Assembly (NCBI GenBank): GCA_045586405.1
Contig: JAZNAG010000104.1
Span: 716-64,715, forward strand
Length of the DNA: 64,000 nt
Source of the DNA: Acutalibacteraceae bacterium
Lineage (GTDB): Bacteria > Bacillota > Clostridia > Oscillospirales > Acutalibacteraceae
Direction: 5' to 3'
Shown here: piece after piece, positions 9,344-44,109 of the stretch
How positions within the stretch are numbered: the first letter of the stretch is position 1
How the letters are laid out: each line of letters begins with the position of its first letter
Program-made: the position numbers and the translations under genes
Notes under the pieces: model-generated
What the model was told of the DNA's origin: nothing
The model's input: only the letters and a program-made list of their open reading frames with translations
Database searches by the model: none

Positions 9344-9407
9344 AAAACACCACTGTTTTTCACTAAATAAATGGATTTGACTGAAAAAACAGCCAAATCC
9401 TTATAAA

Positions 9408-20600: not shown

Positions 20601-23600
20601 ATGAAAACACCACTACTGATGAAAATTTGTTCAGTACTTCTGGTCATCACTATGATGATTACAATGTGTCCCCTTTCTATATTTGCTATTGACGAGGAGG
20701 GTGACGAAGAAATCATCGAGCCGGTTGATGTTTATTCGGCCGATGACCTTGAAGAAGTTTTAGCAGGTGATGATGATTACATTCGTATTCTTAACGACTT
20801 CTATTTAGACAGAACGTTCTACATAGACCACAATGTAACCATTTATACCGAATCGGCAATAACCCTAACCCGTGCGCCTGAATTTGACGGCGACATTTTC
20901 ATTGTCGGCAAAAACAGCGAGGGTAATATTTGTGAAGAATCGGTTTCCTTAACACTTGGAAACAAAGATTCTGTCATATCCGACCTACTTACCATAAACG
21001 GTAATAGCGAAAATATGGCAGCCGAAGTAACAGGTACGGTTATTTTTGTTTGTGCAAATGCTAAAATAAATCTTTACGAAGACCTGACAATAACAAACTG
21101 TGTCAAGGTTGGCAATGACGAAACAATGACAGGTTTGCACACATTATCCTACCCTGCCCGTATAGGCGGTGCTGCAATTATTCTTGCCGGTAACAGTTAC
21201 GGTAACATTTACGGCGGTAAATACATTAACAACTCTGTAAATGATTTTACCGATGCTGATACCGATGAAGGCAGCGCTTCTACCCACGGCGGTGCCATTT
21301 ACAACTATGGTACCCTCAACGTTTACGGCGGTATATTCTCTAATAACCACGCCGGTCGTGGCGGTGCCTTCTACAACTATCGTGTTCTAAATCTTTACAG
21401 TGCTGAAATTACCGGCAATACCTCTTCTACCTTTGGTGGTGCTATTTATGTACCTAACAGTACCTCTGCATATACATATATTGGTGAAGAAAACGGTATT
21501 GGCGACAGTTTTGTTTCTTTCGGCGGCAACTCTGCTGAAGAAGGCGGCGGTGCTATATACGTCAAAAATGTTGCCACAGTAAAAAACACTTCCTTTAGTG
21601 ATAACAGTGCAGGTACATCCGGTGGCGCTATTTTCGCCCCTGCTATGGAGCTAACAGTTTCAAACTCAACCTTTGACAACAACATTTGTGCTACAAATGG
21701 CGGTGCTATATATCTTTCTGGTACCAACTCTACCGCAGGTAAAGAATTTACTGCAACCGAATCATCCTTCAGAAACAACGTTTCCCAAAGCAAAGGCGGT
21801 GCTATATACATAAAAGAAGCCTCTGCATATATGGAAAATGTCATTTTTGAAGCTAACAACAGTCCTTCCGGCGGTGCAATTTATTCTACAACCGCAAATA
21901 TTGATATAAATACCGCTACCATAAACGATAACACAACAACAGGCTATGGCGGTTTTATATACCTGGTTGAATCTTCTGTTGCAAAAATGAACAAAATCAC
22001 CGCAACAGGCAACATATCAAATTCTTCCGGTGGTTTCATATGTTCAAACGCTTCTACCACAACTATTTACGACAGTACCTTTGTTGGTAACAGATCTACA
22101 TCCTCAGCAGGTGCTATCAGCTTTAATTTGGACTCGGTTGGTAATGTATATAATTCTACCTTTGAGAACAATATCACCGGTGGTTCAGGTGGTGCAATTT
22201 TCATTTACACCAATGGTGTTGCCACCCCGACAATTATTCACAGCTGTACATTTTTAAACAACCAAGCAGGTTCAGGTGGTGCAATATACGCTTCCAAAGC
22301 AAGTATTGCCGAGCTTTATAATATTACTGCAAAAAATAACAGTGCAGATAAAGGCGGTTTCCTTTATATTACAACCACCAATACAACTTTATCCTTAGCC
22401 GGTATCTCAGTTTACGGAAATACCGCTTCTGTTGGTGGTCCTATTATTTGGGGTAACCTTAAAGCATCAATTCTTAAAATCGATAAAACAAAATATGTTG
22501 ATATGGGCAACTCAGGCGACTGGGATGACGCTTACTGGAGCGCCGCAATCTATAACTTAGTTACTGTTAAGGAAGCAAGCCTATCTATTCCTTCATACAT
22601 TGGTTATGACGGTAACGAAGTTATTCCTGAAGTTATTTCTGTTCCTGCAGAAGTTTCTACAGTTGCTGAGCTTGAGCGCGCTATAAACGCAGGTCACGAT
22701 TTAATTCGTATCACCAAGAGTTTTGAACTGGACCGTACCTTCTATATCAAAAATGATATGAACATTTTTGCAAGTTCTGCGGTAACCCTTACCCGTGCCG
22801 CTGACTTCGGCGGTGACATATTTGTAGTTGGCGAAACCGAAGACGGTACCCTTCTTGAAACTGCAGAAAACGATAGAATCGTTCTCTCAATCGGTAACAA
22901 GGAATCAAAAGAGAGCAATATGCTTGTAATTGACGGTAACAGAGACAATATGACTGTTACAGTTACCGGCTCGGTATTTTTCGTTCGTAAAAACTCACAG
23001 GTAGATCTATACGAAAACCTTTCTGTAATCAACTGCAAAAAGAACGGTAACAGCAAGACCTACAATTACACCGATACCGATATTTCGGGTTATCCTGCCA
23101 ATGTAGGCGGTGCTGTTGCAATTATGACAAGTGGCAGTTTGATGAACATTTATGGCGGTAATTACAAAAACAATGCTGTAAATAATACTGCCGATGCTGA
23201 TTCCCTTTCATCCTGGGGCGGTGTTATTTTCAACCATGGTACAGTTAATATTTATAGCGGTACTTTTGAAAATAACCACGCAGGTCGTGCCGGTTTTCTT
23301 TACAACTACCGTGTGTTAAATGTATATAATGCCACGATCAAAGGCAGTTCTGCCTCCTCTATGGGTGGTGCTATATATATTCCCGCTTCTACAGCTGCCT
23401 CTACTAATATCGGTACTGACAATGATTTGGTAGAAAGCCACGTAATCATTACTGAAAGTTCCTCTACCGGTAACGGTGGTGCTATATACGCTCAAAAATA
23501 CCTGAAAATTGAAAATGTTGAATTCAGCAAAAACACTTCGGGCGGAAATGGCGGCGCACTGTATCTTACAGGTACAAACGCTACTATCAGCAACACTGTT

Positions 23601-26600
23601 TTCAAGGAAAACTCTACTACATCTGATTCTTCCTATGGCGGCGCTATTTATCATAAAGATTCAAATACAAAAATTACCGGTGCCACTTTTGAAGGCAATA
23701 CATCTCCCTCCCACGGCGGTGCAATTTATACAACCGGTGCTATTGACACCAACGAGAAGGATTTAACCATATTCAGCTCCTCCTTTAATTCAAACAGCAC
23801 TAATGCAAATGGTGGTGCTATATACGTTTGCGGTTCTTCACGAATATACTCTGTAAAAACCAACTATAGTAGCAATAGTGCTACATCAGGTGGTGCAATT
23901 TACTCTACAAACGGTAACGTTGACGTTAATACATCTATCGTTAGAAATAACACCGCTTCCTCTGTTGGTGGATTTGTTGCAGTATATACAAATTCAACTG
24001 CCCTTTTAAATGCCATTGATGCTGAAGAGTGTTTTGCAAATACAGGTGGTCTTGTATATGTTAAAAACTCCGATTTAGAAATTTACAACAGCCATATTAA
24101 AATGTGTAGCGCTCGTACCACACACGGCGGTGCTGTATATGTAGAAACAGGCTCTAATGCCAAGTTTTATGCAAGTACTTTTGAAAATAATACCGCTGAC
24201 GATAACGGCGGTGCGCTCGCCCTATACAATGCCGGACTTTATAACCTCATTCACAGTTGTACCTTTATAGGTAACAGCAGTAATGTTTTGGGTGGTGCTG
24301 CATGGATTTCTAACGGTCCTACAGTTGATATTTACAATATCACTGCTAAGAACAATCACTCCGACAAAGGTGGCGCGCTCTACATAACCGTATCCGGTAC
24401 TGTGGTTAATCTTATCGGTGCTACATTCTCAGGCAATACCGCAACCACAGGCGGTCCTATTATCTGGGGTAACACTTTTAATGCTGTTCTCAATATTGAC
24501 AAGTCAAAATACACCGACCTTGACCATACCGGTGCTTATGACGACGCTTATTGGAGTGCAGCTATATACAACAAATTAACTGTTAACGAAACCACAGGTG
24601 AAGTTCCCAAATATCTTGACTACGGCAACGAGCCTTATGACCATATGAGCGATGCTGTTGACGTTAAGACCTGTGACCAGCTTGAAGCTGCTCTCAAGAG
24701 CGATGCAAAACATATTCGTATTATTTCTGACCTTATTATAGACAGAACTTTCTACATTGACAGAAGCGTAACAATATTCTCCACTGCCCCCTACGTCTTA
24801 ACCCGTTCACCCGAGTTTACGGGAGACTTCTTTGTTGTAGGCGAAACCGAGAATACAGTTAGTTCACTTGTTGATAACGGAAGAATTTTCCTAACCCTTG
24901 GTAACCCGTTATCTGTTAAAGAAGACCTTTTAACCTTTGACGGTAACTCTGCCAATATGAAAGAGACAGTTAAGGGTACAATTCTGTTTATAACCAGCAG
25001 TTCTATTGTTGAGTTACACGATAACATCACAATAACCAACTGTTACAAGACCGACAACGAACGAACCTACGAAACCAAATACAACCTGCCAAGATCTAAT
25101 CGTATCGGTGGTGCAGGTGCCATTATTCATAGTGGTACTCTTGATATTTATGGCGGTAATTACAGAAATAACAAAATTGGTGACGAAGACACTACTACTG
25201 CTGACGATTCAGGTAGAAATTCTTCCATCGGCGGTCTTATTTACAACTTCAGCAACCTGATTATACGCGGTGGTACATTTGACGGAAACACTGCTGCCCG
25301 CGGTGGTATAGTTTATAACTACCGTACCGTTAAAATTTACGGTGGTACCTTTACAAACAACCACGCTACCGTAAACGGCGGTGTTATCTATCAACCTAAT
25401 ACTGCTCCCGCACAATTGCGTATCGGTACTCAGTACAACGCCGGAGATTTCTCTGTATTATTTGAAAACAACACATCAGTTAAGCACGGCGGTGCAATTT
25501 ACACTTCAAGCCTTAGCTCTACTCTAATTAACGGTAATGTTACTTTCAAAAATAATAAATCAACTGAAGGTAGTGGCGGTGCTATTGCAATTTACGGTCA
25601 ATTAACCGCTACCGGTATTAACTTTACCGGCAACTCAGCTTATCTAAGAGGCGGTGCGGCTTATCTTGCCAACTCAAGCGACTCTTATGTAACAAGATTT
25701 ATTAAGTTTGACAACTGTAAATTCACAAGCAATACTGCACTACTCGGTGGTGCTCTGAATATCTTTGCAGGTTCTTCCTCTTTAAGTAACGGTGCTCAGG
25801 TTATCGTTAACAACTGTAACTTTAAGAAGAACACTGCCGCCAAGACATTCGACAGCCCCTCCTCTGCTTTTGGTGGTGCAATTGTTGCAGAAAGAAAATC
25901 CACACTTACTGTAACCGATTCAACCTTTACACAGAACAGTGCAGCAAACGAAGCAGGTGCAATTTACATCGCAGGTCAAAGTACTGCTACTATTAACGGT
26001 TCTACCTTCAGTTCTAACTTTATTGCCGAAGGTGGTACACACGGTGGTGCAGTAGTTGTACGTAGTTCTAAGCTTACTGCCGACAATAATACCTTCTCCG
26101 ATAACAAAGCTATTAACAACGGCGGCGCTGTGTATATTTCTTATCAGAGCGCTCAGGGTGTTAACTCTGATGTTAAAATTACAAATTCTATTATCAAGAA
26201 AAACTACGCCGGTGGTAATGCAGGTGCAATTTACGCTACCAAGATGACTGTTGAAAACGAAAAACGTATTCTTACTGTAAAAGATACTGAATTCAACGGT
26301 AACAGCGCCGAATCAAATGCAGGTGCCGTTATGTTAGCAACAGGTGTTGATGCCTTCTTTAAGAATGTTAAGTTTGATAAGAACTCTGCAATTACCGGTG
26401 ACGGCGGTGCGTTATTCACCTACGGCGCAATAATGACTTTTGAAACTGCAGAATTCAACGAAAACACCTCAACCGAAACCGGTGGTGCCATCCGCATTGA
26501 CGGTGCCGCTACCGCAACATTATACGATATCCTTGCCACCAAAAATGCAGCACAGACAAGCGGCGGATTTTTATTTAATGATTCCGGCGCTGTAAAAGTA

Positions 26601-29600
26601 TATGACAGTTCCTTCAAAAACAACTCTGCCAACGGCAACGGTGGTGCAATAACCGTTTACGGCGCCGGCACCAGCGAAATTTACGGTAGTGAATTTGTAG
26701 GCAACAAAACCACCGGTAATTCATCAAGTTCAAACGCCGGTGCTTTATACTTCGGCAGTGCTGAAAAGAATAACTTAGTTCACTCCTGTACATTTACAGA
26801 TAATAGTGGCTACTACGGTGGCGCAATATACGCTACCGGTAAGGCACAGGGTAGTTTCTACAATATTACCGCTACAAACAATAGCGCACAAAGAGGTGGC
26901 TTCTTCTACGAAACCACAACAGGTACTACCTTTAATATTGCAAGTCTTACCGTTTCGGGCAATACCGATGTTGAAGGAGCTCCGATTATTTGGGGCAACA
27001 GTTTTGGCGCAGTACTAAATATCGATAAATCAAAATACACCGACAAAGATGTAACTACTGCACTTGACGATGCTTACTGGGCTAAGGCAATTTATAACAA
27101 GCTCACAGTCAATTATGTAACATTGACTGTTCCAGCCTATACTGCTTATAAGCCTACGGAAGATAAAGTAGTTACTCCTACAGAAAAAACACCTGTACCG
27201 GTAACCGATGTTTTGAACTTAGCTCAGAACAGCACTGACGGATACATAAACTCTTATTATGATAAGTTAGAAAAGCTTGAGAACAATTCAAACTTCTTAA
27301 GTAAAAATACTGCGACCTTTGAAAATATCAACGGAAATACTGTAACGGTAGACACCTTTGTATACCCCTACAAGAGTGCTGCAGACAACTGTAACTTCAG
27401 TCAGGGTATTCTTATGTATCAGGCTATTCTCTATAAAGCAGCCCACCCCGAAGAAGAAGTTTATATTGATGTTGCTTCTTATCGTATGTCTGTTGCCGCA
27501 GCAGTTAACATTAACCCCAACAGCAGATACTACGGCTATATGAGAAATCTGCAGGGCAAAGAATACGACTCCAACGGTTTCGTACGCCTTGCTTATCTGA
27601 TGATTACTGCCGCAAAAATGGGTATTCACGTAAATGTTCTCGGTCATATAGACGGATATCCCGCTTACTCAAGTGACCCTAACCTTAATAAGTATTTCAC
27701 TAACAAGTTAAATGATCCTTGTGATCCCGCTTATGTTGAGAACGGTGTAATCGGCGATTATCTTGACTTTAATAAGTTCAACTGGACACTGGACAATAAA
27801 GGCGGAACAGATATGATGCACACAAAGATGTGCGCTGTTTCCCACTATCTTGACTGGAACGGTGTAGAACACAAAAATGCCGTTTGGTCATCCAGTTCTA
27901 ACCTTGACGGTATAAGAACTGAAGGTTGGAACGGTAACTATAAGTTACAGACCGCATCTATTGTTACAGGCCATGCTGAAATATACCGTACTGCAACCAA
28001 CTATCTGCGCTTAATCGGCAATTATAAAGAGCAGGAACAGGTTTACGAGTTCCACGAGCTTATAAGCCAGATGAATACATATCAGATTGATATGATAAAT
28101 GCAGGTCGCGGTGATGAAATACCTGAAGACGAAAGAATAGTTTATCTTGGCACCGAGTATGACAAGGTATTTGAGCTTTACTTTACTCCCTTCGGCGGTG
28201 ATCAGGTTGTTTGGGACGAAGAGCATAACCCCTACTGTAAATATCTGCGCAAAATGTATAATTCTGAAGATTATATTCTCTTCTCTTGGAATACTGCAGA
28301 ATACAACGGTGAATTCCCCTTAGGTAAGCAAATTGAAGATGTTATAACTTCTGCTTTCCACGATAACCGCAACCCAAACAACAGATTCTATGCAATAATG
28401 AACTCCTACAATTCTGCAAATATGTCCGATTTGAAGGTAGGAAAAGATATAGGTTTCTTCTCACTTAACAAGAGAGATTTCGGCTATATTCATAACAAGG
28501 ATATGCAGATGTCTTACGTAGAAAACGGTCAGCGTTACTATGTATCTCTGCTTAACTCCTGCAACGTACACTCCGGTTCTATGTGTTATCAGTCCAACTT
28601 TATGCTTGTTATTAAAGAAACTGATTACACAGAAAAAAGCGTATTCTTTAATCATGCAGAAAATACCACTACCGGTATTGTTGACCACGATTACGGCGAA
28701 GTGCTTGTAAAAGAAGCTGAGGAAAACAAACACGGCTATACTTATAAAACATGTCAGCAATGCGACAAGCAGATAATTCTTGATGAAGTTCACAATTACA
28801 GTGACTGGATAACCGACAGAGAGGTTACCTCTACCTTAAAGGGTATCGAGCACAAAGAATGTACTGTATGCGGTGAAATATTTGAAACAAGAGAAGTTGC
28901 TTTCTCTAAAGAAACTTCTATAGATACTTCTGACAGCGAAGGCAAATTCTTTACAACCGATACAAACTCACTTATTTCTGTACCCGAAAATGTAACCCCC
29001 TTAACCATTGAGGCAACCATTCAGGTTCCCAAAAACAGAACCAGCCGTGCAGGTGTAATTGTTGGTAACTACAAGAACTCATCTGTTGGCGAGTTCAACG
29101 TAGAAATTTACACAAACGGTAATTTACGTCTTTACTGTGTAGCCGGCAGCAAAATTATAAACACAATATTTGCAACCGACCTACGCTCAGACAACCCACA
29201 GCATATTGCTGTTACTATTGACTCAAATATTGCTACCCTTTATTTAGGCGGCGAAGCAGTAGAAACCAAAAAGTTAGTAGCTTCCCTTCCCGAAAATATG
29301 GCTGACTTTAAGATAGGCGGCGATAACAGAGAAGGCAACGCTCAGCACTTTAAATGTGCTCTGCACTCAATAGCTCTATTTAGCGATATCAGAACTCCGG
29401 ATGAAATTAAGCTCGATGCTATGTATGTAACAAATGATGCTGATAATCTCATTTACTCAGAATACTACTCAAAGCTCCAAAATTCTGAAACAGCATCAAG
29501 CAGCACACTTGAAGGTAAAACCTTCACCGGCAGAGATTTGTATAGCTTTGGCAGAACGTTTGCCGCTACTCCTCGAACAATTGAAGCAACCATTCTTGCT

Positions 29601-32600
29601 CCCAAGAGCATTTCTTCAAGAATGGGTGTTATCGTTGGTAACAATAACGGCAGTGATCCCTTCATCAACCTGGAAGTATATACCGAAGGTAAAGTTCGTC
29701 TGCTTTATAATGACGGTACTACTAAGACAACCCATACCTTCTCTGAGGATATACGTTCCGACTCCCCTGTCAATATTGCTGTTACCATGAGCGGAACTAC
29801 TGCAACTCTGTATGTAAACGGTATCAAAAAAGAAACCGCTACAGTCAGTGAAATCACTGCTAATATCACCAAAAACTTTGTTGTTGGCGGTGATAATACT
29901 CCCGGTAACTACAATTACTTCAAGGGTACCATTTACTCAGTAAATATGTTCTCTGATGCAAGAAGTGAGGCTGAAGTATTAAACGATGCTATCTTTGTTA
30001 ACAGTAAAGATGACAGTCTTTTAGCTTCTGTATACTTTACTTCAAAACAGACCGACAAGAAATTAACTGCCGTAAGCAACCTTGGTCAGACATTCAGTGC
30101 ATCAAAGCTCTACTCTACCGAAAAAACCTTTGATCAGCCTGCCAAAACCTTTGAAGCAGTTATAAATGTACCGAAAACTCTTAACAACCGTGCCGGTGTA
30201 ATCATCAGTAACTATGACGGTAGTTCTTCACCGCAGGTCAGCATTGAGGTTTACACTCAGGGCAAGGTAAGACTCTTCTATCATACAGGTAGCGCAAAGA
30301 TTGAGTATATATTCAGTAAAGATATTCGTTCTGCCGATCCTACACATATTGCTATTACTATAGACGATATGACAGCTTCTCTGTATGTAAACGGTGAATT
30401 TTCCGAATCCACTACCCTTACCCGCGCATTCCCCAATATTACCAGCGGATTGATGATAGGTAGTGACAACCGTAGCGGTAACTCCCAGTACTTCAAGGGT
30501 ACAATTTACTCAGCCGCTATCTTCTCCGATGTTCGTACAGCTGAAGAAATCAAGCAAGATTCACTTCTTGTTACAAACGATGCCGATGCCCTGCTCTACA
30601 GCGAATATTTCGCAAACGAAAATGACGAAGCATTTGTTATTGAACCTACAGGCAAAACCTTTACGGAAACTCTTGTTGGTATTGTTGGTTCTCTGAGCAG
30701 TGCTCCCAAGACCATTGAAGCCGATGTTTTTGTACCTGAAAATATCACTTCAAATGCCGGTGTTATTTTCAGTAATCGTTCAGATAGCACAGAAAATCAG
30801 ATTGGCATAACTCTCTGTGAAGACAACAAAGTACGTCTTGACTTTGTAAATGGCGAAGTATCACAGTCTTACCTATTTAGTTCTTCTGTTACTGCCGGTA
30901 AACTGACAAATGTTGCCGTTACCTTTAGCGAAAACACCGCAGCTCTGTATATTGACGGAAAACTCTGCGAAATTGCAACCTTAGATGCATATCTTCCCGA
31001 TATTGTACAGAACATTAAAATTGGCGGTGACAACCGCGTAGGTAACCCCGAATATTTCAAGGGTTCTATTTACTCAGTAAATATGTTCTCAGATGTAAGA
31101 AGTGATTCCGAAATACTTTCAGACTCTGTTGCAGTTTCTAAGTATGCCGATAATCTCATTTACTCTGATTACTATGTAATGAAGAAAAATGACGGTGTAT
31201 CATCCTCTACTCTTACTCCTGTCGGCTTCAATTCCACTCCTTCAAGTGAGTTTGAAATTACAGACCTGAATAGTTCTCCCTATACTATTGAAGCAACAGT
31301 AAAAGTTCCAAAAAGTATGGAAGACCGTGCGGGTACAATTATAGGCAACTATAAATCAGGTAACAGAACTCAAATGAACCTTGAAATTTACGACGGCGGT
31401 CGTGTTCGTATTTACTATGTTTCAAGTGCCGGTACTGTTGACTGTATCTTCTCTACCGACATACGCTCAGATAACGCCGTACATTTAGCTGTTACCCTTA
31501 AGGATAACACCGCTTCTCTGTACGTTAACGGCGTATTAGCCGAAACCAAGGCTGTAAGTTATATTTATGACATCCACGCCAAGAAGCTGAAAATCGGTAG
31601 CGATTTCAGACCTAACGATACTATGTATTTCAAAGGCACTATCTACTCAGTTAATCTGTTCTCTGAGGCTCGTACTGCAGAACAGATTGCAAGTGATATG
31701 CTTCTTGCCGCTCCCGTTACCGATTCTCTTATTTACTCTACTTACTTTGCTAATGTTACAAATCATTCTGATGCAACCGGCAGAACCTTCTCAAAGAATG
31801 AAATAAGTGAAATAGGAAATCTTGACAGCACGCCTTATACCTTTGAGGCTACCATCAATGTTCCTAAGTCGCTTAGCGGTCGTGGCGGTGTAATCGTAGG
31901 TAACTACGGCTCAGGCGCTAAATCTCAGATAAGCATTGAAATTTATGACGGCGGACGAATTCGTCTGTTCTATGTTGCTATGTCTAAGCGTACCGACTGT
32001 GTCTTTACAACCGATATACGTTCAAACGATCCTGTTCACATTGCAGTGACTCTCAATGGCAAAGTTGCTACACTTTATATTGACGGTGTTGCTACCGAAA
32101 GCATTACTCTGGACATTGACTACAAAATCACCACCGACAAGTTCACCATTGGTGGCGACAAGCGTTCAAACAACTCACAGTATTTCAAAGGAACTATTTA
32201 CTCTGTAGCTCTCTTCAGTGATGTCCGTACAGCTGAGGAAATTAAGCAAGATGTAAACGGCATCACCGATGGTACCGATTCACTTATTTGCAACAGATAC
32301 TTTAACTCTGAAATCTGTGAAGCAAGTGCAACCAGAGACGGTCATATTGCAAGTGACTGGATTATAGACAGCGTAGAAACCGCTACACTTTCAGGTGTAA
32401 AACACAAAGAATGTATTCGTTGCTCCAAAGTTCTTACTGTAAGTGATATTAAAACCAGCTTATATTACAGCAACCACATTGTAATTGCTGATATGAAGGG
32501 TAAAAAGCTTAGCAACGTTACAGATGCTTACGAAGTAAAAACCACACTTCCTTATGCACCTGTCACATTTGAAGTTTCACTCAACTTACCTTCCGGCTTC

Positions 32601-37818: not shown

Positions 37819-38464
37819 AAGTCATTTTTTCTTGTTTAACTTTTTTATCTATTATGTGACGAGAGGCAAGTTCGTTCTTAATATCCGAAACATTTATACC
37901 CATTTCCACCATCATTACCATTATATGATACATAAGGTCGGCAACCTCATATACCGTTTCGGCTTTATCGTCAGCCTTGGCAGCAATTATTACTTCGGTT
38001 GTTTCTTCACCGATTTTCTTTAAAATCTTATCAATACCTTTTTGAAACAGATAGGTAGTATATGAACCTTCAGGCAGTTCATTTTTTCTTTGTTTTAGTA
38101 AATCATACAGACCTTCGGTTGAAAAAGCATTCAACTCGTCGCTGTGCCAGATTTCATTAAAGAAGCAGGAATTTTCACCCGTATGACAGGCAGGACCGTC
38201 CTTTTTAACAACCACCGTTAAAGCATCGTTATCGCAATCGGCGGTAATTGATACAATATGCTGATAATTCCCACTTGTTTCGCCCTTGAGCCACAGTTCC
38301 TGTCTGCTGCGGCTATAAAAACAGGTAAGCCCTTTCTCCATAGAAATCATAAGACTTTCTTTATTCATATAAGCAAGGGTTAAAACCTCTTTTGTGTCAG
38401 CATCGACAACAATAGCAGGTATAAGCCCCTTTTCATCAAATTTAAGTTTATCAATACTTATCAT
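37817..38464 (-). CDS. hisI: Bifunctional phosphoribosyl-AMP cyclohydrolase / phosphoribosyl-ATP diphosphatase
   Basis: GLIPAIVVDADTKEVLTLAYMN...CHTGENSCF (HisI part), followed by a HisE-like C-terminal half. Confidence 0.9.
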   Translation of the reverse strand: MISIDKLKFDEKGLIPAIVVDADTKEVLTLAYMNKESLMISMEKGLTCFYSRSRQELWLKGETSGNYQHIVSITADCDNDALTVVVKKDGPACHTGENSCFFNEIWHSDELNAFSTEGLYDLLKQRKNELPEGSYTTYLFQKGIDKILKKIGEETTEVIIAAKADDKAETVYEVADLMYHIMVMMVEMGINVSDIKNELASRHIIDKKVKQEKMT

Positions 38465-39225
38465 TATTTTAACCTCACAATAATTCCGTTGTCATTAAGT
38501 TCTTTTTTCAAATCACTTATTTTAACTTCACCAAAATGGAAGATAGAAGCTGCCAGACCTGCATCAACACCCGGTAACGTTTTAAAAAGCTCAACAAAAT
38601 GCGCAGTATTGCCGGCTCCCCCCGAAGCGATAACAGGTACATTAACAGCATTGCATACAGCTTCTAACATTTCAAGGTCGAAACCTCCCTTTACTCCGTC
38701 GGTATCAATAGAATTAACGACTATCTCACCTGCGCCGTCATTAACGCCTTTTTTAATCCAGCTTATTGCCTCAATGCCTGTATCCTCTCTGCCGCCTTTG
38801 GCAAAGACGTGAAAACTGCCGTCAACTCGTTTTATATCAACAGACAAAACAACGCATTGGTCACCGTACTTTTTAGCAGCATTAGATATTAACTGAGGAT
38901 TTTTGATAGCGCCCGAATTAACACTGACTTTATCTGCGCCACATTTAAGTACTCTGTCAAAATCGTCAACAGTTTCAATTCCACCGCCTACCGTTAACGG
39001 TATAAAAATTTGCGAGGCAACCTCTTTTAAAATATCGGTAAAAAGTTGCCTACCCTCAAAAGAAGCTGTTATATCGTAAAAAACAAGCTCGTCAGCACCG
39101 TTTTCACTGTAATACCGTGCTAAATCTATAGGTGAAGAAACATCATTTAGTCCTTTAAAGTTAACACCCTTAACAACTCTGCCGTTTTTTACGTCAAGGC
39201 AAGGGATAATTCTTTTTGTTATCAT
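38464..39225 (-). CDS. hisF: Imidazole glycerol phosphate synthase, cyclase subunit
   Basis: MITKRIIPCLDVKNGRVVKG...IPLTVGGGI...VIASGGAG. Confidence 0.92.
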   Translation of the reverse strand: MITKRIIPCLDVKNGRVVKGVNFKGLNDVSSPIDLARYYSENGADELVFYDITASFEGRQLFTDILKEVASQIFIPLTVGGGIETVDDFDRVLKCGADKVSVNSGAIKNPQLISNAAKKYGDQCVVLSVDIKRVDGSFHVFAKGGREDTGIEAISWIKKGVNDGAGEIVVNSIDTDGVKGGFDLEMLEAVCNAVNVPVIASGGAGNTAHFVELFKTLPGVDAGLAASIFHFGEVKISDLKKELNDNGIIVRLK

Positions 39226-39935
39226 TTTGTTATCTCCACCGCCTCTTTAATATCAATGGCACCGGTGTAATACGCTTTACCTATTATAGCGCCGTATACA
39301 TCAATCTTATTCAACTCAATAATATCATTTATATCTGTTACTCCGCCTGAAGCGATTATGTCTAAGTTTAGTTCATTTTTTAACTTTCTATATAGGTCAA
39401 GGTTGGTGCCTTTCATAGCGCCGTCACGGGAAATGTCGGTGCAAATAATGGTTTTAACGCCGATACTTTGCATCTGTGTACAAAATTCTATACCGTCAAA
39501 CTCTGATTTTTCGGTCCAGCCCTTTATAGCAACCTTACCGTCTTTTATGTCTACACCGACAGCAATTTTGTCGCCGTATTTTTTTACAGCACTTAGCAAA
39601 AATTCTCTGTCTTTTACAGCGGCGGTGCCCAAAATCACTCTATTAACACCGGAACTGATATATGTTGCAACGGTCTCCATACTTCTGATGCCGCCGCCGA
39701 TTTCTATAAAAGCATCTGTTACGCTTCTTATTTTTTTTACGGTTTCAATATTAGGGGTATTACCATCCCTTGCGCCCTCAAGGTCAACAAGATGAAGAAA
39801 CTCTGCCCCGCTTTCTTTAAACTTTACTGCAATTTCTTCGGGATGGTCACTGTAAACCGTCATATTATTATAGTCGCCTTTATATAAACGGACAGCCTTG
39901 CCGCCGTAAATATCAATAGCAGGAAAAATTTTCAT
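39222..39935 (-). CDS. hisA: ProFAR isomerase
   Basis: MKIFPAIDIYGGKAVRLYKGDY...LHLVDLEGA...IASGGV. Confidence 0.9.
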   Translation of the reverse strand: MKIFPAIDIYGGKAVRLYKGDYNNMTVYSDHPEEIAVKFKESGAEFLHLVDLEGARDGNTPNIETVKKIRSVTDAFIEIGGGIRSMETVATYISSGVNRVILGTAAVKDREFLLSAVKKYGDKIAVGVDIKDGKVAIKGWTEKSEFDGIEFCTQMQSIGVKTIICTDISRDGAMKGTNLDLYRKLKNELNLDIIASGGVTDINDIIELNKIDVYGAIIGKAYYTGAIDIKEAVEITK

Positions 39936-39938
39936 AAA

Positions 39939-40553
39939 TTACTCTCCGTATTCACAAAACGCTTTTAAGATTTTAAGTCCAGTTTCACCGCTTTTTTCGG
40001 GATGAAACTGACAGCCGAAAATATTATCCTTAGCAACTGCGGCGGTAATATCTATACCGTATTCTGAGGTTGCAATAAGGCATTCCTCACATTCATTAGC
40101 AAAAAAAGAATGAACAAAATAAACACAGTCACCCTCGTTTATATATTTAAACAAAGGACTGTCCTTTATAAACTTTAGTCCGTTCCAACCGATATGAGGA
40201 ATTTTAAGGTTGGCAGGTATTCTTTTATCCATAGCTACTACCTTGCCCTTTAAAAGACCTAAGCCGTCGTGCTCTCCGTATTCGAAACTTTTTTCAAAAA
40301 GCATCTGCATACCAAGACAAATACCAAGAAGCGCCTTACCCTTTTTCACCTCGTCAATAATCACTTTATCAAGAGATAGTGTGCGAAGTTTTTTAATTGC
40401 ATCCTCAAAAGCGCCTACGCCGGGTAATACAATTTTATCTGCTTTTTTTATGGTTTCGGCATCACCGGTAACACAGATATCCAAACCAAGAGATTTAAAA
40501 GACGAACAAAGTGAAAAAAGATTTCCAACTCCGTAGTCAACAATTGCTATCAT
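39939..40553 (-). CDS. hisH: Imidazole glycerol phosphate synthase, glutaminase subunit
   Basis: MIAIVDYGVGNLFS...LPGVGAF...GICLGMQ...FHPEKS. Confidence 0.92.
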   Translation of the reverse strand: MIAIVDYGVGNLFSLCSSFKSLGLDICVTGDAETIKKADKIVLPGVGAFEDAIKKLRTLSLDKVIIDEVKKGKALLGICLGMQMLFEKSFEYGEHDGLGLLKGKVVAMDKRIPANLKIPHIGWNGLKFIKDSPLFKYINEGDCVYFVHSFFANECEECLIATSEYGIDITAAVAKDNIFGCQFHPEKSGETGLKILKAFCEYGE

Positions 40554-41140
40554 CAGAGAACTCCTTTAGTCGAGGGTATTTGGTTTTCAAAGCGTGTATC
40601 AATAGCCACTGCCCGTCTTAAGGCTCTGGCAACCGACTTGAATGCGCCTTCTGCAATATGGTGTGAATTTCTGCCGTCACGCTGTATGATATGTAAGGTT
40701 ATATCGGCATTTCTTACAAAAGAAACAAAGAATTCCTCAATAAGTTCACTGTCAAAGGTGCCTATTTTTTCGCTTCTGATATCAAGTTTATAGGAAATAT
40801 ACGGTCTGCCGGAAATATCAACGGCAGATTCAATAAGTGCCTCATCCATAGGAAGAAGCATTGAGCCGTAGCGGTTAATACCCTTCATATCCGAAAGTGC
40901 TTCCTTAAAAGCCTTACCAAGACAGATGCCTAAATCTTCAGCAAGATGATGATCGTCCACAAAAGTGTCTCCGTTTGCTTTAACGTTCAGGTCAAAACCG
41001 GAGTGACGGGCAAACAAAGTAAGCATATGAGTTAAAAAACCGCAAGGAATATCAAGTTTTGCTTTTCCCTCTCCGTCAAGATTTATACTGAGTTCAATTT
41101 GAGTTTCACTTGTATTTCTGTTTATAGAAGCTTTTCTCAT
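40553..41140 (-). CDS. hisB: Imidazoleglycerol-phosphate dehydratase
   Basis: RNTSETQIELSINLDG...DDHHLAEDLGI...GRNSHHIAEGAFKS. Confidence 0.92.
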   Translation of the reverse strand: MRKASINRNTSETQIELSINLDGEGKAKLDIPCGFLTHMLTLFARHSGFDLNVKANGDTFVDDHHLAEDLGICLGKAFKEALSDMKGINRYGSMLLPMDEALIESAVDISGRPYISYKLDIRSEKIGTFDSELIEEFFVSFVRNADITLHIIQRDGRNSHHIAEGAFKSVARALRRAVAIDTRFENQIPSTKGVL

Positions 41141-42204
41141 TTTACTTCCTCCTTAATTTCTTTTACAGTACTGATAAACTTTTTCATCTGTTTTAAAGTA
41201 CCTATGGTAATGCGGTTATAGTCGCAAATTTCTTTTGCCGAAAAATGTCGTATTAAAACGCCTTTGGCTTTAAGCCTTTTGTAAAGTTCCTCGCCGCCTA
41301 TCCAGTTACTTTTTGCAAATATAAAATTGGTTTTCGAATCAATAACCTCAAAACCTATTTCTTTCAGCGCATTTGCGGTAAAGGTGCGGTTTTCCATAAT
41401 CTTTTTGCACTTATCAACATAATAGTCGTTATCATCAATAGCAGCAGCGCCTGCCACTAAAGACAGTCTGTTTATGTTATAGGGATTGGTTGAATATTTA
41501 ATAAGTTCCAAATCCTTAATAATTTCTGCGTTACCGATTGCAAAACCTAGTCTGGCACCAGCAAGACAACGTGATTTTGAAAAGGTGCAACAAACAAGAA
41601 GATTATTATACTTTTTAGTAAGAGCAGTTGCGCTTTCACCACCGAAATCAACATAGGCTTCATCAATAAGCACAACATTATTTGGGTTTGATTTGACTAT
41701 TTCTTCTATTTGGTCAACAGACAGCGCAAGACCGGTTGGTGCGTTGGGGTTTGCAATAACAATAAATTTATTCTTATTAAGATAGTCCTTGTAATCAATA
41801 GAAAAATCTTTTTTAAGTTCTATTTCTTCGGCTTTCAGTCCGTAAAGCTGAGCAAAAACCTTGTAAAAGCCATAGCTAATCTTTGGAAAGGCTACCTCAC
41901 CCTTTTCTCCCGAAAAAGTCATAAAGGAAAAGTTAAGAATATCATCAGATCCATTTGCAAGATAAACGTTATCAGCCTTTACTCCGTAAAGGTTTGCAAT
42001 TTTTTCCTTAAGAACCTTAGCTGTCGGATCAGAGTAAAGCCTTAAGTTTTTTACTTCATTCTTGCTTACAGCTTTCAGTACCTTTTTTGATGGTGGGAAT
42101 GGTGATTCATTGGTGTTAAGCTTTACATATTTCATATCTCTGGGCTGTTCACCCGGAACATACGCGGTAAGACCACTGAATTTACTGTTTAAAAATTTAC
42201 TCAT
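41137..42204 (-). CDS. hisC: Histidinol-phosphate aminotransferase
   Basis: LNTNESPFPPS...NPNAPTG...TFSKS(R) PLP-lysine motif. Operon context. Confidence 0.9.
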   Translation of the reverse strand: MSKFLNSKFSGLTAYVPGEQPRDMKYVKLNTNESPFPPSKKVLKAVSKNEVKNLRLYSDPTAKVLKEKIANLYGVKADNVYLANGSDDILNFSFMTFSGEKGEVAFPKISYGFYKVFAQLYGLKAEEIELKKDFSIDYKDYLNKNKFIVIANPNAPTGLALSVDQIEEIVKSNPNNVVLIDEAYVDFGGESATALTKKYNNLLVCCTFSKSRCLAGARLGFAIGNAEIIKDLELIKYSTNPYNINRLSLVAGAAAIDDNDYYVDKCKKIMENRTFTANALKEIGFEVIDSKTNFIFAKSNWIGGEELYKRLKAKGVLIRHFSAKEICDYNRITIGTLKQMKKFISTVKEIKEEVK

Positions 42205-43481
42205 TTTTTATTCTCCGTACGAATAATTGCGCTTTTTGCATGGGCAGAAAGGCCTTCTTTTTCAGCAAAATAAGCAACATCTTGCGCAACCTTTTCCAGC
42301 GCTTCTTTTGTATAGTATGTATACTGAGTTTTCTTTACAAAGTCATCAACTGAAAGCGGGCTTGAAAACTTTGCTGTACCGCTTGTGGGTAAGGTGTGGT
42401 TAGGACCTGCAAAATAGTCGCCCAGTGCCTCAGGACAGTATTTGCCCATAAATACAGAGCCTGCATGACGTATACTGTCAAGATAATCAAATGGGTTATC
42501 AACACAAAGTTCAAGATGCTCAGGTGCTATTTCATTAGCTATATCTATTGCAACCTTCAGGTCATCGGCAACGATAATTTTGCCGTTATTATCAATAGAT
42601 GTTCTGGCAATTTCACTTCTTGGCAGAAGCGGAATTTGTTCTTCAAGCTGAGCAGAAACTTTTTTGGCAAATTCAATACTATTAGTAACCAGCACAGCGC
42701 TTGCCATTTTATCGTGCTCTGCCTGAGATAACAGGTCTGCTGCAATATAAGAGGGCTCACAGGTATCATCGGCAACAATCAGTATTTCACTGGGTCCGGC
42801 TATCATATCAATAGACACAGTACCATATACCTGCTTTTTGGCTTCGGCAACAAAGGCATTACCGGGGCCGACGATTTTATCAACCTTAGGTATACTTTCG
42901 GTACCGAAGGCTAAAGCCGCGATAGCCTGAGCGCCGCCCACCTTGAAAATACGGTCAACCCCTGCCACCTTAGCTGCCGCTAAAATAACGGGATTTACCT
43001 TTGAATCACTTGACGGCGGTGTTACAATACACAGCTCCTTTACACCTGCAATTTTAGCAGGGATACTGTCCATAAGCACAGTTGACGGATATGCGGCAGT
43101 ACCACCGGGCACATAAAGACCTGCGCGGTCAACAGGGATAACCTTCTGACCGATTACAACGCCCTGTTTATCGTTGATAATAAAACTGTTTCTCAACTGT
43201 TTTTCGTGGAAATTACGAATATTATCTGCCGCCGAGCGTAAAATTTCTATAAATTTTTCGTCTACGCTTTTTATAGCTTCTTCAATTTCTTCCTCTGTCA
43301 CCTCAAGACAGTCAAGATTAGCTTTATCAAATTTTAAAGAGTAACGGTAAAGAGCCTCGTCGCCATTTTCTTTAACATCGGCAAGTATCTCACTTACCAC
43401 ACCCGAAACATCTGTCTGAACATCACAACGGGAAAAAATCTCACTGTTTGGCACTTCGCCGTACTTTAATATCTTAATCAT
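42201..43481 (-). CDS. hisD: Histidinol dehydrogenase
   Basis: [16 protein letters not shown]...SQAEHD...[13 protein letters not shown]. Confidence 0.92.
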
Positions 43482-44109
43482 TATAACTCACCTGTTTAGC
43501 AAGGCCGGATTTTACAGCCTCAATTATATCTTTATTAAACTGATAACTTGCTTTGTTGGAAATTAGTCTTGCGCTTATAGGAACTATGGTTTCATAAGCA
43601 GTAAGATCATTTTCTGTAAGGGTTTTCCCCGTTTCAACTATATCCACAATTACATCAGAAAGTCCAAGTATAGGGGCAATTTCTATAGAGCCGTTAAGAT
43701 GAATAATATCAATATCACGGCATTTTTCTCTGTAATATTTAGCGGCAATATTTGAAAACTTAGTAGCAACACGCAGAGTTTTATCGGTATTATCTCTGAA
43801 ATCACGTTTTGCCGCAACTGCCATTCTGCATTTACCGATATTAAGGTCAAGCAGTTCATAGACATCGGGGCAGTATTCAAGCAAAATATCCTTACCTGCA
43901 ACACCAATATCTGCCGCGCCGCGTTCAACATATATTGCAACATCAGAGGGTTTTACCCAGAAATATCTAACCCCTGCTTTTTCGTTTTCAAAAATGAGCT
44001 TTCTGTTATTCTCTTTAATAGAAGGACATTCAAAACCGGCTTTTTCAAACATTTCATAAACCTTTTCGCCCAGTCTGCCCTTGGGAAGTGCAACGTTAAT
44101 CATTTTCAA
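43474..44109 (-). CDS. hisG: ATP phosphoribosyltransferase, short (HisZ-dependent) form
   Basis: 211 aa. INVALPKGRL...DIVETGKTL. Paired with hisZ upstream. Confidence 0.9.
   Translation of the reverse strand: MKMINVALPKGRLGEKVYEMFEKAGFECPSIKENNRKLIFENEKAGVRYFWVKPSDVAIYVERGAADIGVAGKDILLEYCPDVYELLDLNIGKCRMAVAAKRDFRDNTDKTLRVATKFSNIAAKYYREKCRDIDIIHLNGSIEIAPILGLSDVIVDIVETGKTLTENDLTAYETIVPISARLISNKASYQFNKDIIEAVKSGLAKQVSYND

What the first reader, a model, noticed from the sequence alone, without database searches (positions are those of the whole stretch)
27150..28700. Embedded PLD-like domain with non-canonical HxK(x)4S motifs
A region with the two-lobe logic of PLD-superfamily enzymes lies between the beta-helices and the LamG array. 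Each lobe has a hydrophobic strand (EVYIDVASYRMS; DYILFSWNTAEY). This is followed ~150-200 aa later by an HxK motif: MMHTKMCAVSH with His at 27819, and IHNKDMQMSYV with His at 28491. A downstream small-residue/Asn motif then follows (WSSSSNLD; LLNSCNVH).

In both motifs the canonical Asp of HxK(x)4D is replaced by Ser, and an insertion separates HxK from the (G)SxN element. If this is real, the giant protein carries a catalytic phosphodiesterase, transphosphatidylase or nuclease-type centre of a divergent subclass. That would change its interpretation from a passive adhesin to an enzyme.
Basis: inference. Interest (0 to 1): 0.65.

Follow-up and report, generated by a model that had tools for sequence, protein, structure and literature searches.

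The report
Hidden PLD-type enzyme in giant protein
A 4,148-residue surface protein of an uncultured gut Clostridium carries a real but unannotated phospholipase-D-superfamily domain whose predicted catalytic residues never vary, so the protein is probably an extracellular phosphodiester-cleaving enzyme rather than only an adhesin.

Summary
Window 27210-28700 (aa 2204-2700 of the ORF at 20601-33047) is a discrete 497-aa domain. Pfam and NCBIfam give no significant hit, yet the AlphaFold2 model is very confident (pLDDT 95). All 50 listed Foldseek PDB hits are PLD-superfamily structures (best E 4e-11).

Both His, both Lys and the downstream Asn residues are invariant in 91 of 91 homologues. The Asp of HxK(x)4D is replaced by Ser/Thr in lobe 1, and mostly Ser in lobe 2. 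The hairpin before SxN is 10 and 7 residues longer than canonical.

A distant sister clade links the family to Pfam PLDc_2 by sequence.

The family is small (201 representatives among 1.84 billion) and was found here only in uncultured gut and rumen Clostridia. It occurs in giant PMP-helix/LamG proteins, in secreted PLD-like–LamG–Metallophos fusions, and as stand-alone proteins with signal peptides, many with lipoboxes. The distant clade sits beside HAD phosphatases, and once beside PhoD.

Verdict: a divergent, probably active, extracellular PLD-type phosphodiesterase, a new variant of a known kind. The substrate is unresolved: phosphodiester-linked glycopolymer, phospholipid or nucleic acid.

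The parts
20601..33047 (+). Giant ORF of 4148 aa. Order: signal peptide, three PMP/beta-helix modules, PLD-like domain, Cys-rich spacer, seven LamG domains.
   Evidence: ORF list and translation. Pfam finds Chlam_PMP, Beta_helix and Laminin_G_3 in 7 stretches.
20601..20690 (+). N-terminal signal peptide (MKTPLLMKICSVLLVITMMITMCPLSIFA|IDEE).
   Evidence: Read directly from the translation. This is inference; no predictor was run.
20700..27149 (+). Three beta-helix modules of about 700 aa, rich in PMP repeats. Each ends in DDAYW...IYNKLTV (aa 642, 1314, 2156).
   Evidence: Pfam Chlam_PMP (18 stretches) and Beta_helix; motif positions.
27150..27209 (+). Pro/Thr/Lys-rich linker (KPTEDKVVTPTEKTPVPVTD).
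   Evidence: Translation. Homologue alignments start after it.
27210..28700 (+). PLD-superfamily domain as a whole (aa 2204-2700), with two lobes.
   Evidence: AF2 pLDDT 95.1. All 50 listed Foldseek hits are PLD superfamily. 164 homologues. Family profile E 4e-207 over aa 2202-2701.
27210..28016 (+). Lobe 1 (aa 2204-2472). Its first core strand is EVYIDVASY at 27456-27491.
   Evidence: Secondary structure of the model: E85-93, E207-214, E220-228, E246-253.
27813..27932 (+). Motif 1: H2407 (27819), K2409 (27825), S2414 (27840), S2432-x-N2434 (27900), D2436 (27906), N2444 (27930).
   Evidence: H, K, N, D and N are invariant in 91/91; Ser is S or T in 91/91.
28122..28679 (+). Lobe 2 (aa 2508-2693). 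Its first core strand is YILFSW at 28269-28304.
   Evidence: Secondary structure of the model: E357-361, E432-438, E441-449, E462-470.
28488..28598 (+). Motif 2: H2631 (28491), K2633 (28497), D2634 (28500), S2638 (28512), S2653-x-N2655 (28563), N2666 (28596).
   Evidence: H, K, D, N and N are invariant in 91/91. Ser is Asn in 5 loci.
28752..28871 (+). Cys-rich spacer (CQQC ... HKECTVCG). It is repeated at about 32373-32423.
   Evidence: phmmer hit to the C-terminal region of IgA protease 9qa6, E 6.8e-7; motif positions.
28929..33038 (+). Array of seven LamG (Laminin_G_3) domains. They are the same subtype that sits between the PLD-like and Metallophos domains in the shorter architecture.
   Evidence: Pfam. 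Seven matches to the LamG part of profile A4.

Best explanation
**Shown**
- Window 27210-28700 encodes a two-lobed domain of the phospholipase D (HKD) superfamily.
- It belongs to a small clade with no Pfam or NCBIfam model and with source names only 'hypothetical protein' or none. The clade's signature in each lobe is HxK(x)4[S/T](x)14-17SxN(x)9-10N.

**Inferred from established PLD/Tdp1 chemistry**
- The two lobes bring H2407/K2409/N2434 and H2631/K2633/N2655 together into one active site.
- One His attacks a phosphodiester phosphorus and forms a covalent phosphohistidine.
- The other His protonates the leaving group, then activates water (or an alcohol) to release a phosphomonoester product.
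- The missing Asp does not block this, because Tdp1 ('HKN') works without it.

**Inferred from architecture**
- The enzyme is extracellular. The giant protein has a signal peptide, and stand-alone homologues have signal peptides, many with lipoboxes.
- It is held at a surface by beta-helix and LamG lectin-like modules.
- It works upstream of a phosphatase. In relatives the partner is a fused purple-acid-phosphatase/GpdQ-like Metallophos domain, or a neighbouring HAD phosphatase (once with PhoD as well). Together these would scavenge phosphate and organic moieties from extracellular phosphodiesters.

**Substrate guess**

| Candidate substrate | Estimate |
|---|---|
| Phosphodiester-linked glycan or polyol polymer, or glycosylated phospholipid head group recognised by the LamG modules | ~0.35 |
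| Ordinary phospholipid | ~0.3 |
| Nucleic acid | ~0.2 |

The confidence given covers the core claim only: a catalytically competent extracellular PLD-type phosphodiesterase.
For: **Fold.** AF2 pLDDT 95.1. All 50 listed Foldseek PDB hits are PLD superfamily, with E from 4e-11 to 8e-7.

**Residues.** H, K and N of both lobes are invariant in 91/91. They are kept in every uncut copy among 80 genome loci.

**Sequence bridge**
- hhalign of the family against the sister clade gives probability 100 and E 1.4e-57, with motifs in register.
- The window domain hits the sister-clade profile directly, E 2.3e-66.
- Sister-clade members pass the PLDc_2 gathering score of 27 bits, with 40.1, 37.9, 30.7 and 29.5 bits.
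- PLDc_2 matches 9 of 28 family members at E up to 5 (best 4.3e-5), all below the gathering score.

**Extracellular location.** Signal peptides and lipoboxes in the homologues. SLH and dockerin fusions.

**Phosphatase partnership**
- The PLD-like–LamG–Metallophos architecture appears in 13 of the 20 mid-size proteins scanned.
- The Metallophos model is closest to Lmo2642, purple acid phosphatases, GpdQ and Rv0805.
- A HAD phosphatase sits just upstream of sister-clade genes in two contexts. One of these also has a TonB receptor and PhoD.

**Mechanism precedent.** Tdp1 HKN (PMC5778467) and SpPLD (PMC8004604).
Against: - No activity data exist for any member.
- I could not read model coordinates, so the convergence of the two His residues was not measured.
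- hhalign of lobe 1 against lobe 2 finds no internal duplication signal.
- TM-scores to solved PLDs are only 0.4-0.5.
- The window domain itself has no significant Pfam or NCBIfam hit, and sequence or profile searches find no PDB relative for it.
- There are no conserved neighbour genes around family members, and the giant gene sits among housekeeping genes.
- The phosphatase link is by fusion in paralogous architectures and by context in a clade only about 21% identical. It is not seen in the window protein itself.
- The domain is acidic (median pI 5.0). This mildly disfavours polyanionic substrates.
Confidence: 0.8

Rival explanations
1. It is a classical phospholipase D or transphosphatidylase. 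It would act on membrane phospholipids from diet, host or neighbouring cells and release head groups such as choline. The beta-helix and LamG parts would only provide adhesion.
For: The best structural match is the secreted phospholipase D of Serratia (7e0m), followed by human PLD1/2 and Streptomyces PLD. One family member is fused to a GDSL/SGNH lipase-acylhydrolase domain (P0126). Many stand-alone homologues have lipoboxes, which would place them at a membrane. Gut bacterial PLDs that release choline are known (my own knowledge; not retrieved here).
Against: - Foldseek scores do not separate lipases from nucleases; PLD3/4 score about the same.
- The dominant partners are lectin-like LamG and a phosphatase, not lipid-binding modules.
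- One sister-clade context includes a TonB-dependent receptor, and two include an MFS transporter. These point to soluble substrates.
Confidence: 0.3
2. It is an extracellular nuclease of the Nuc/PLD3/PLD4 type. It would digest environmental DNA or RNA, with the Metallophos partner acting as a nucleotidase.
For: PLD3 and PLD4 exonucleases are among the top structural hits, with E from 2e-10 to 9e-8. Pairing a nuclease with a metallophosphoesterase nucleotidase is a known extracellular scavenging logic (my own knowledge). E. coli 5'-nucleotidase and Mre11 appear among the Metallophos matches.
Against: - The domain is acidic (median pI 5.0).
- The Metallophos partner is closer to Lmo2642, purple acid phosphatases and GpdQ than to 5'-nucleotidase, and it has no 5'-nucleotidase C-terminal domain hit.
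- LamG modules suggest glycan recognition rather than nucleic acid recognition.
Confidence: 0.2
3. It is a non-catalytic PLD-fold module, a pseudoenzyme comparable to the PLD-like domains of PPK1. It would serve as a phosphate- or ligand-binding or scaffolding unit in an adhesin.
For: PPK1 PLD-like domains are among the hits. The canonical Asp is absent, and the domain has no significant Pfam hit. The host protein otherwise looks like an adhesin.
Against: Pseudoenzymes normally lose the catalytic residues. Here H, K and N of both lobes are invariant in 91/91 sequences that are otherwise only about 40% identical. The domain also exists alone as a secreted protein and fused to other hydrolases.
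Confidence: 0.07
4. The HxK motifs are chance matches in a domain of another fold.
For: HxK is a short pattern. There are 5 in the protein, and one H.K....[ST] match lies in a LamG domain.
Against: The fold assignment, the invariance of the residues and the profile bridge to PLDc_2 all contradict it.
Confidence: 0.01

Closest known systems
Secreted bacterial two-lobe PLDs of Pfam PLDc_2 (Serratia plymuthica SpPLD 7E0M; Streptomyces PMF PLD 1F0I/1V0S)
   Same: They are single-chain, two-lobed and secreted, with one HxK per lobe at the lobe interface. SpPLD is the best Foldseek match (E 4e-11, TMt 0.51). The mechanism runs through a phosphohistidine (PMC8004604).
   Different: - About 11% identity.
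- Asp of HxK(x)4D is replaced by Ser/Thr.
- The hairpin before SxN is 10 and 7 residues longer.
- No GG/GS six residues after the motif.
- No PLDc_2 hit at all for the window domain.
- Embedded in a 4148-aa protein.
Tyrosyl-DNA phosphodiesterase 1 (HKN subclass of the PLD superfamily)
   Same: The motif logic matches. In each lobe His, Lys and a distant Asn are conserved, there is no Asp, and the H-to-N spacing is stretched: 20 and 23 residues in Tdp1 (from the residue numbers in PMC5778467) against 27 and 24 here. This shows that the Asp is dispensable for catalysis.
   Different: Tdp1 is not among the 50 listed structural hits. It is a eukaryotic nuclear DNA-repair enzyme. No sequence relationship was detected.
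PLD3/PLD4 lysosomal 5' exonucleases
   Same: Two-lobe luminal (extracytoplasmic) PLD-fold enzymes that act on a non-lipid phosphodiester. Foldseek E from 2e-10 to 9e-8, TMt about 0.5.
   Different: They are eukaryotic type II membrane glycoproteins with HKD/HKE-type motifs (my own knowledge). Identity is about 10%. They have no lectin or beta-helix partners.
Unnamed sister clade (alignment A3, e.g. P0259, P0261, P0385, P0391): secreted or lipoprotein PLDc_2-like proteins of about 480 aa
   Same: True homologues over both lobes: hhalign probability 100, E 1.4e-57, 417 columns. The hairpins are extended in the same way, and the Asp is likewise absent.
   Different: - About 21% identity.
- Lobe 2 has a more canonical GSTN.
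- Found beside a HAD phosphatase, Zn-ADH and MFS genes, and in one locus also a TonB receptor and PhoD, rather than fused to LamG or PMP modules.
- Some members pass the PLDc_2 threshold.

Membership tests
PLD (HKD) superfamily, Pfam clan CL0479 | Two alpha/beta lobes (or a dimer of two domains) with the PLD fold | tested here: met
   AF2 pLDDT 95.1. All 50 listed Foldseek PDB hits are PLD-superfamily structures, probability 1.00, E down to 4e-11.
PLD (HKD) superfamily, Pfam clan CL0479 | A conserved His and Lys (HxK) in each lobe | tested here: met
   H2407/K2409 and H2631/K2633 are invariant in 91/91 and in all uncut genome copies.
PLD (HKD) superfamily, Pfam clan CL0479 | Detectable sequence homology to established members | tested here: met
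   The link is transitive. Family against sister clade: hhalign E 1.4e-57. Window domain against sister-clade profile: E 2.3e-66. Sister-clade members score 29.5-40.1 bits on PLDc_2, above the 27-bit cut-off.
PLD (HKD) superfamily, Pfam clan CL0479 | The two His residues face each other in one pocket (about 6-7 A apart in SpPLD, PMC8004604) | not testable with these tools
Only secondary structure and Foldseek tables were returned.
PLD (HKD) superfamily, Pfam clan CL0479 | Phosphoryl transfer through a covalent phosphohistidine | not testable with these tools
   Needs biochemistry.
Canonical HKD enzymes (Pfam PLDc / PLDc_2) | Asp at the fifth position after Lys: HxK(x)4D | tested here: not met
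   Ser/Thr in lobe 1 (91/91). In lobe 2: S 86, T 3, A 1, R 1 of 91, and Asn in 5 further loci.
Canonical HKD enzymes (Pfam PLDc / PLDc_2) | G(G/S)xN starting six residues after the Asp position | tested here: not met
   SxN is present and its Asn is invariant. It is displaced by 10 residues in lobe 1 and 7 in lobe 2, and the Gly is not conserved in the window (SSSN, NSCN).
Canonical HKD enzymes (Pfam PLDc / PLDc_2) | Score above the Pfam gathering threshold | tested here: not met
   No PLDc or PLDc_2 hit for the window domain at E<=1 or E<=5. PLDc_2 matches 9 of 28 family members at E up to 5 (best 4.3e-5), all below the cut-off.
Tdp1-type HKN subclass | HxK plus a distant conserved Asn in each lobe, without Asp | tested here: met
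   The pattern is present and invariant. The definition comes from PMC5778467. This is a resemblance in motif logic only.
Tdp1-type HKN subclass | Sequence or structural closeness to Tdp1 | tested here: not met
   No Tdp1 entry among the 50 listed Foldseek hits. PDB sequence and profile searches find no PLD-superfamily entry for this domain.
Polyphosphate kinase 1 | N-terminal and head domains plus two PLD-like C domains that lack HxK catalysis | tested here: not met
   Only the PLD-like part matches. There are no PP_kinase Pfam hits in the giant protein, and the HxK motifs are intact.

The most novel reading that the evidence does not exclude
The domain founds a lectin-targeted class of PLD-fold enzymes. 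These would cleave phosphodiester-linked glycopolymers or glycolipid head groups: teichoic-acid-type polyol phosphates, phosphoglycans, or plant or fungal glycosyl-inositol-phospho-ceramides. I know of no PLD-superfamily enzyme described with this substrate class.

Gut Clostridia would deploy them on giant surface proteins, and in fusion with a phosphatase, to harvest or strip phosphorylated glycans from neighbouring cells or from feed.

What the evidence allows:
- The PLD-like/LamG adjacency is constant across the multi-domain architectures scanned.
- The same LamG subtype sits next to the Metallophos domain.
- The sister clade lies beside HAD phosphatase, Zn-ADH and MFS genes, once also with a TonB receptor and PhoD.
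Probability: 0.2. Interest if true: 0.75.

Novelty: new variant of a known kind. Interest (0 to 1): 0.45.

Why it matters
- It turns a 4,148-residue 'adhesin-like' protein, and at least 201 representative relatives in gut and rumen Clostridia, into candidate extracellular enzymes.
- It defines a PLD-superfamily clade that has no Pfam or NCBIfam model and carries no informative source name.
- It gives a natural example, besides Tdp1, in which the eponymous Asp of the HKD motif is systematically absent while His, Lys and Asn stay invariant.
- The recurrent coupling to phosphatases (Metallophos fusion; HAD and PhoD neighbours) points to an uncharacterised route for breaking down extracellular phosphodiesters in the gut. 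That route could affect phosphate, choline or polyol release, or cell-wall turnover in the community.
- The finding is directly testable with one recombinant domain and four point mutants.

Tried and rejected
- **Pfam and NCBIfam on the window domain.** No significant hit.
- **phmmer and two profile searches against PDB sequences.** Nothing for the domain itself. The only hit is the flanking Cys-rich motif, to IgA protease 9qa6.
- **hhalign of lobe 1 against lobe 2.** No internal-duplication signal (probability 1.2). The pseudo-twofold symmetry therefore rests on the fold match and the parallel motif layout only.
- **Conserved gene neighbourhood in 80 genome loci.** None. The largest neighbour cluster occurs in 6 loci.
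- **Neighbours in the window.** Housekeeping genes only.
- **Subtype of the fused Metallophos domain.**
  - phmmer against PDB found nothing.
  - AF2 plus Foldseek gave a generic purple-acid-phosphatase/Lmo2642/GpdQ/Rv0805-like phosphoesterase, which does not settle the substrate.
- **Isoelectric point as a nuclease indicator.** Acidic (about 5.0), which is weak evidence only.
- **Literature searches.** I searched for this architecture and for PLD-type teichoic-acid phosphodiesterases; nothing relevant was found.
- **PPK1-like function.** Rejected: no kinase domains are present.
- **Cytoplasmic lipid synthase (Cls/Pss).** Rejected: the protein is extracellular.
Full report
**1. What is at the coordinates**

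The finding lies inside one very long ORF, window 20601-33047 on the + strand, 4148 aa. Pfam places Chlamydia-PMP/right-handed beta-helix repeats over the N-terminal ~2170 residues and seven Laminin_G_3 domains over the C-terminal ~1370. It gives no significant hit for aa ~2185-2760, and neither does NCBIfam.

One detail is wrong. The first hydrophobic strand of each lobe precedes its HxK by about 121 and 74 residues, not 150-200.

**2. It is a real, conserved module**

A search with window 27210-28700 (497 aa) found 164 homologues at 37-52% identity over about 95% of the query. Most are 500-620 aa, have no precomputed Pfam domain, and carry either no source name or 'hypothetical protein'.

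An exhaustive profile search of 1.84 billion cluster representatives found only 201 proteins at E<=1e-3. The family is therefore small. A scan of one genome per species returned 80 loci (the 80 kept of 93 confirmed). All are from uncultured gut, faecal or rumen Clostridia: Acutalibacteraceae, Oscillospiraceae, Ruminococcus and Lachnospiraceae MAGs. The closest is 89% identical, from an Acutalibacteraceae MAG.

**3. The motifs are conserved far beyond chance**

In a 91-sequence alignment the following are invariant, 91 of 91:

| Lobe | Invariant residues |
|---|---|
| 1 | H2407, K2409, N2434, D2436, N2444 |
| 2 | H2631, K2633, D2634, N2655, N2666 |

- The residue that replaces the canonical Asp is S 85 / T 6 of 91 in lobe 1, and S 86 / T 3 / A 1 / R 1 in lobe 2. 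It is Asn in five further loci.
- Every genome copy not cut by a contig end keeps both HxK and both SxN.
- Both lobes share one layout, HxK-x4-[S/T]-x17/14-SxN-x9/10-N. The His-to-Asn spacing is 27 and 24 residues, against 17 in the canonical HxK(x)4D(x)6GSxN.
- In the model, the extra residues lie in the strand-turn-strand that follows HxK: E207-214/E220-228 and E432-438/E441-449.

**4. Fold**

AlphaFold2 with the 91-sequence alignment gave mean pLDDT 95.1 and pTM 0.94. Foldseek against the PDB gave 95 matches at E<=1e-3. All 50 listed are PLD-superfamily structures:

- Serratia PLD 7e0m (E 4.1e-11, TMt 0.51)
- human PLD1 and PLD2
- PLD3 and PLD4
- the PLD-like domains of PPK1
- phosphatidylserine synthase
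- Streptomyces PLD
- vaccinia F13
- plant PLD alpha

Identities are 8-14% and TM-scores 0.4-0.5, as expected for a remote member with insertions.

**5. Sequence bridge**

- Weaker hits of the profile search form a sister clade of about 480-aa secreted proteins (alignment A3).
- hhalign of the family against this clade gives probability 100, E 1.4e-57 over 417 columns. MMHxK aligns with QMHNK, SxNLD with STxNxD, HxKD with THxKN, and NSxN with GSTN.
- The window domain hits the sister-clade profile directly, E 2.3e-66, over aa 2234-2687.
- Four sister-clade members exceed Pfam's PLDc_2 gathering score of 27 bits, with 40.1, 37.9, 30.7 and 29.5 bits. The matches cover the first strand through GSxN in lobe 1, and HxK through GSxN in lobe 2.
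- PLDc_2 matches 9 of 28 family members at E up to 5, best 4.3e-5, all below the gathering score.

Membership of the superfamily is thus supported independently by fold, by residues and by sequence.

**6. Tests that found nothing**

- Sequence and profile searches of PDB chains found nothing for the domain.
- hhalign of lobe 1 against lobe 2 gave no signal.
- I could not read model coordinates, so the distance between the two His residues was not measured. This is the main gap in the catalytic argument.

**7. Architectures and partners**

Three architectures recur:

- **(a) Giant proteins of 2000-5200 aa.** PMP/beta-helix modules, then the PLD-like domain, then LamG arrays. These domain copies are 55-89% identical to the window copy. 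Some shorter relatives carry PMP plus the PLD-like domain plus SLH or DUF5648.
- **(b) Secreted proteins of 1080-1580 aa.** PLD-like, (Big_2), Laminin_G_3, Metallophos, (fn3), (dockerin). This was seen in 13 of the 20 mid-size proteins scanned. One member carries a GDSL/SGNH hydrolase instead (P0126).
- **(c) Stand-alone proteins of 500-620 aa.** They have signal peptides, many with a lipobox.

Further points:

- The LamG-Metallophos unit is itself a widespread Clostridial module, named only 'metallophosphoesterase'.
- Its Metallophos domain models well (pLDDT 90). It is closest to Lmo2642, purple acid phosphatases, GpdQ and Rv0805, which makes it a generic phosphomono/diesterase.
- The seven LamG domains of the window protein are of the same subtype as the LamG of that module.
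- No neighbouring gene is conserved around family members. The giant gene is flanked by housekeeping genes.

**8. Context of the sister clade**

- One locus reads: HTH-cupin regulator | HAD phosphatase – TonB-dependent receptor – PLD-like – PhoD – Zn-ADH – MFS.
- Three loci carrying one and the same protein (P0391) share the order aldehyde dehydrogenase – HAD phosphatase – PLD-like, with a cupin gene on the opposite strand. The longest also shows Zn-ADH, MFS and citrate-synthase-like genes upstream.
- Another locus has Zn-ADH next to the PLD-like gene.
- Other loci are uninformative.

The theme shared with architecture (b) is a PLD-type phosphodiesterase paired with a phosphatase. Here it comes with uptake and oxidation functions for a soluble alcohol or polyol product.

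**9. How it most likely works**

Shown: a PLD-superfamily fold, invariant His/Lys/Asn in both lobes, and an extracellular location.

Inferred from established PLD and Tdp1 chemistry (PMC8004604; PMC5778467):
1. One His attacks the phosphodiester and forms a phosphohistidine.
2. The other His acts as general acid, then as general base.
3. Lys and Asn bind the phosphate and stabilise the transition state.

Tdp1 shows that the Asp of HKD is not needed, so the Ser/Thr replacement marks a subclass rather than a loss of function.

Inferred from the partners: the domain releases a phosphomonoester that a Metallophos, HAD or PhoD phosphatase then dephosphorylates. The beta-helix and LamG modules hold the enzyme on a glycan-bearing surface.

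The substrate is not settled. My estimates:

| Substrate | Estimate | Main arguments |
|---|---|---|
| Phosphodiester-linked glycopolymer, polyol phosphate or glycolipid head group | ~0.35 | LamG adjacency; TonB/MFS/ADH context of the sister clade |
| Ordinary phospholipids | ~0.3 | Best structural hit is a secreted PLD; GDSL fusion; lipoboxes |
| Nucleic acids | ~0.2 | PLD3/4 hits. Against: domain is acidic (median pI 5.0) and the Metallophos domain is not of 5'-nucleotidase type |
| Non-catalytic module | ~0.07 | Made unlikely by the invariant residues |

**10. Comparison with what is known, and novelty**

- The domain is a member of the PLD superfamily: fold, HxK pairs and transitive homology were all tested and met.
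- It is not a canonical HKD/PLDc_2 enzyme. The Asp, the GSxN spacing and the Pfam threshold were all tested and not met.
- In motif logic it works like Tdp1's HKN subclass, but it is not related to Tdp1 specifically.
- I found no paper describing this clade or architecture.

I rate it a new variant of a known kind. It is a useful re-annotation and a testable enzyme hypothesis, but not a new principle. Interest 0.45.

Noticed in passing
window 28752-28871 and about 32373-32423: A Cys-rich module of about 35-50 aa (CxxC ... W[IV]xDxExTxTxxGxxHKECxxC[GS]) occurs twice. One copy follows the PLD-like domain and the other precedes the last LamG. phmmer matches two repeats in the C-terminal region of an IgA protease structure (9qa6, E 6.8e-7). 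It is probably a small zinc-ribbon-like spacer found in Clostridial surface proteins.
   Followed up: partly
window 28929-33038: All seven LamG domains of the giant protein match the LamG part of the widespread 'Laminin_G_3 + Metallophos' module (local hmmsearch with profile A4). The window has no Metallophos domain. The giant protein looks like the PLD-like–LamG–Metallophos architecture with the LamG amplified and the phosphatase lost or supplied separately.
   Followed up: partly
window 20700-27149: The N-terminal part consists of three repeated PMP/beta-helix modules of about 700 aa. Each ends in the same DDAYW(S/A)(A/K)AIYN(L/K)(V/L)TV motif (aa 642, 1314, 2156). The protein has no recognisable C-terminal anchor (no LPXTG, SLH or dockerin), unlike some relatives.
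   Followed up: no
L056:5785-10215, L043:440-5059, L077:2878-7626 (related loci): The shorter architecture is PLD-like–Big_2–LamG–Metallophos–fn3. In L043 and L077 it ends in a type I dockerin, so in some Ruminococcus-like genomes the enzyme pair is probably mounted on a cellulosome-type scaffold.
   Followed up: no
L083:4422-13419 and L088-L090 (sister-clade loci): A candidate catabolic locus for an unknown phosphodiester. L083 has HAD phosphatase, TonB-dependent receptor, PLD-like protein, PhoD, Zn-dependent alcohol dehydrogenase and MFS transporter. L088-L090 (one protein, P0391) have aldehyde dehydrogenase, HAD phosphatase and the PLD-like gene, plus MFS and citrate-synthase-like genes in the longer two and Zn-ADH in L088 only.
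   Followed up: partly
L081:4641-11126: Four tandem paralogues (51-87% identical) of the sister-clade PLD-like gene lie in one 3.8-Mb genome. The copy at 8001-9464 shows only one match to the pattern H.K.....
   Followed up: no
window 37817-45208: A run of eight minus-strand ORFs downstream of the giant gene looks like a histidine-biosynthesis operon. The first two were confirmed by Pfam (PRA-CH/PRA-PH at 37817-38464 and His_biosynth at 38464-39225); the rest were not scanned. This, with Hsp33, serine dehydratase and an ABC-FtsX fusion nearby, shows the giant gene sits in ordinary chromosomal context and not on an obvious mobile element.
   Followed up: no
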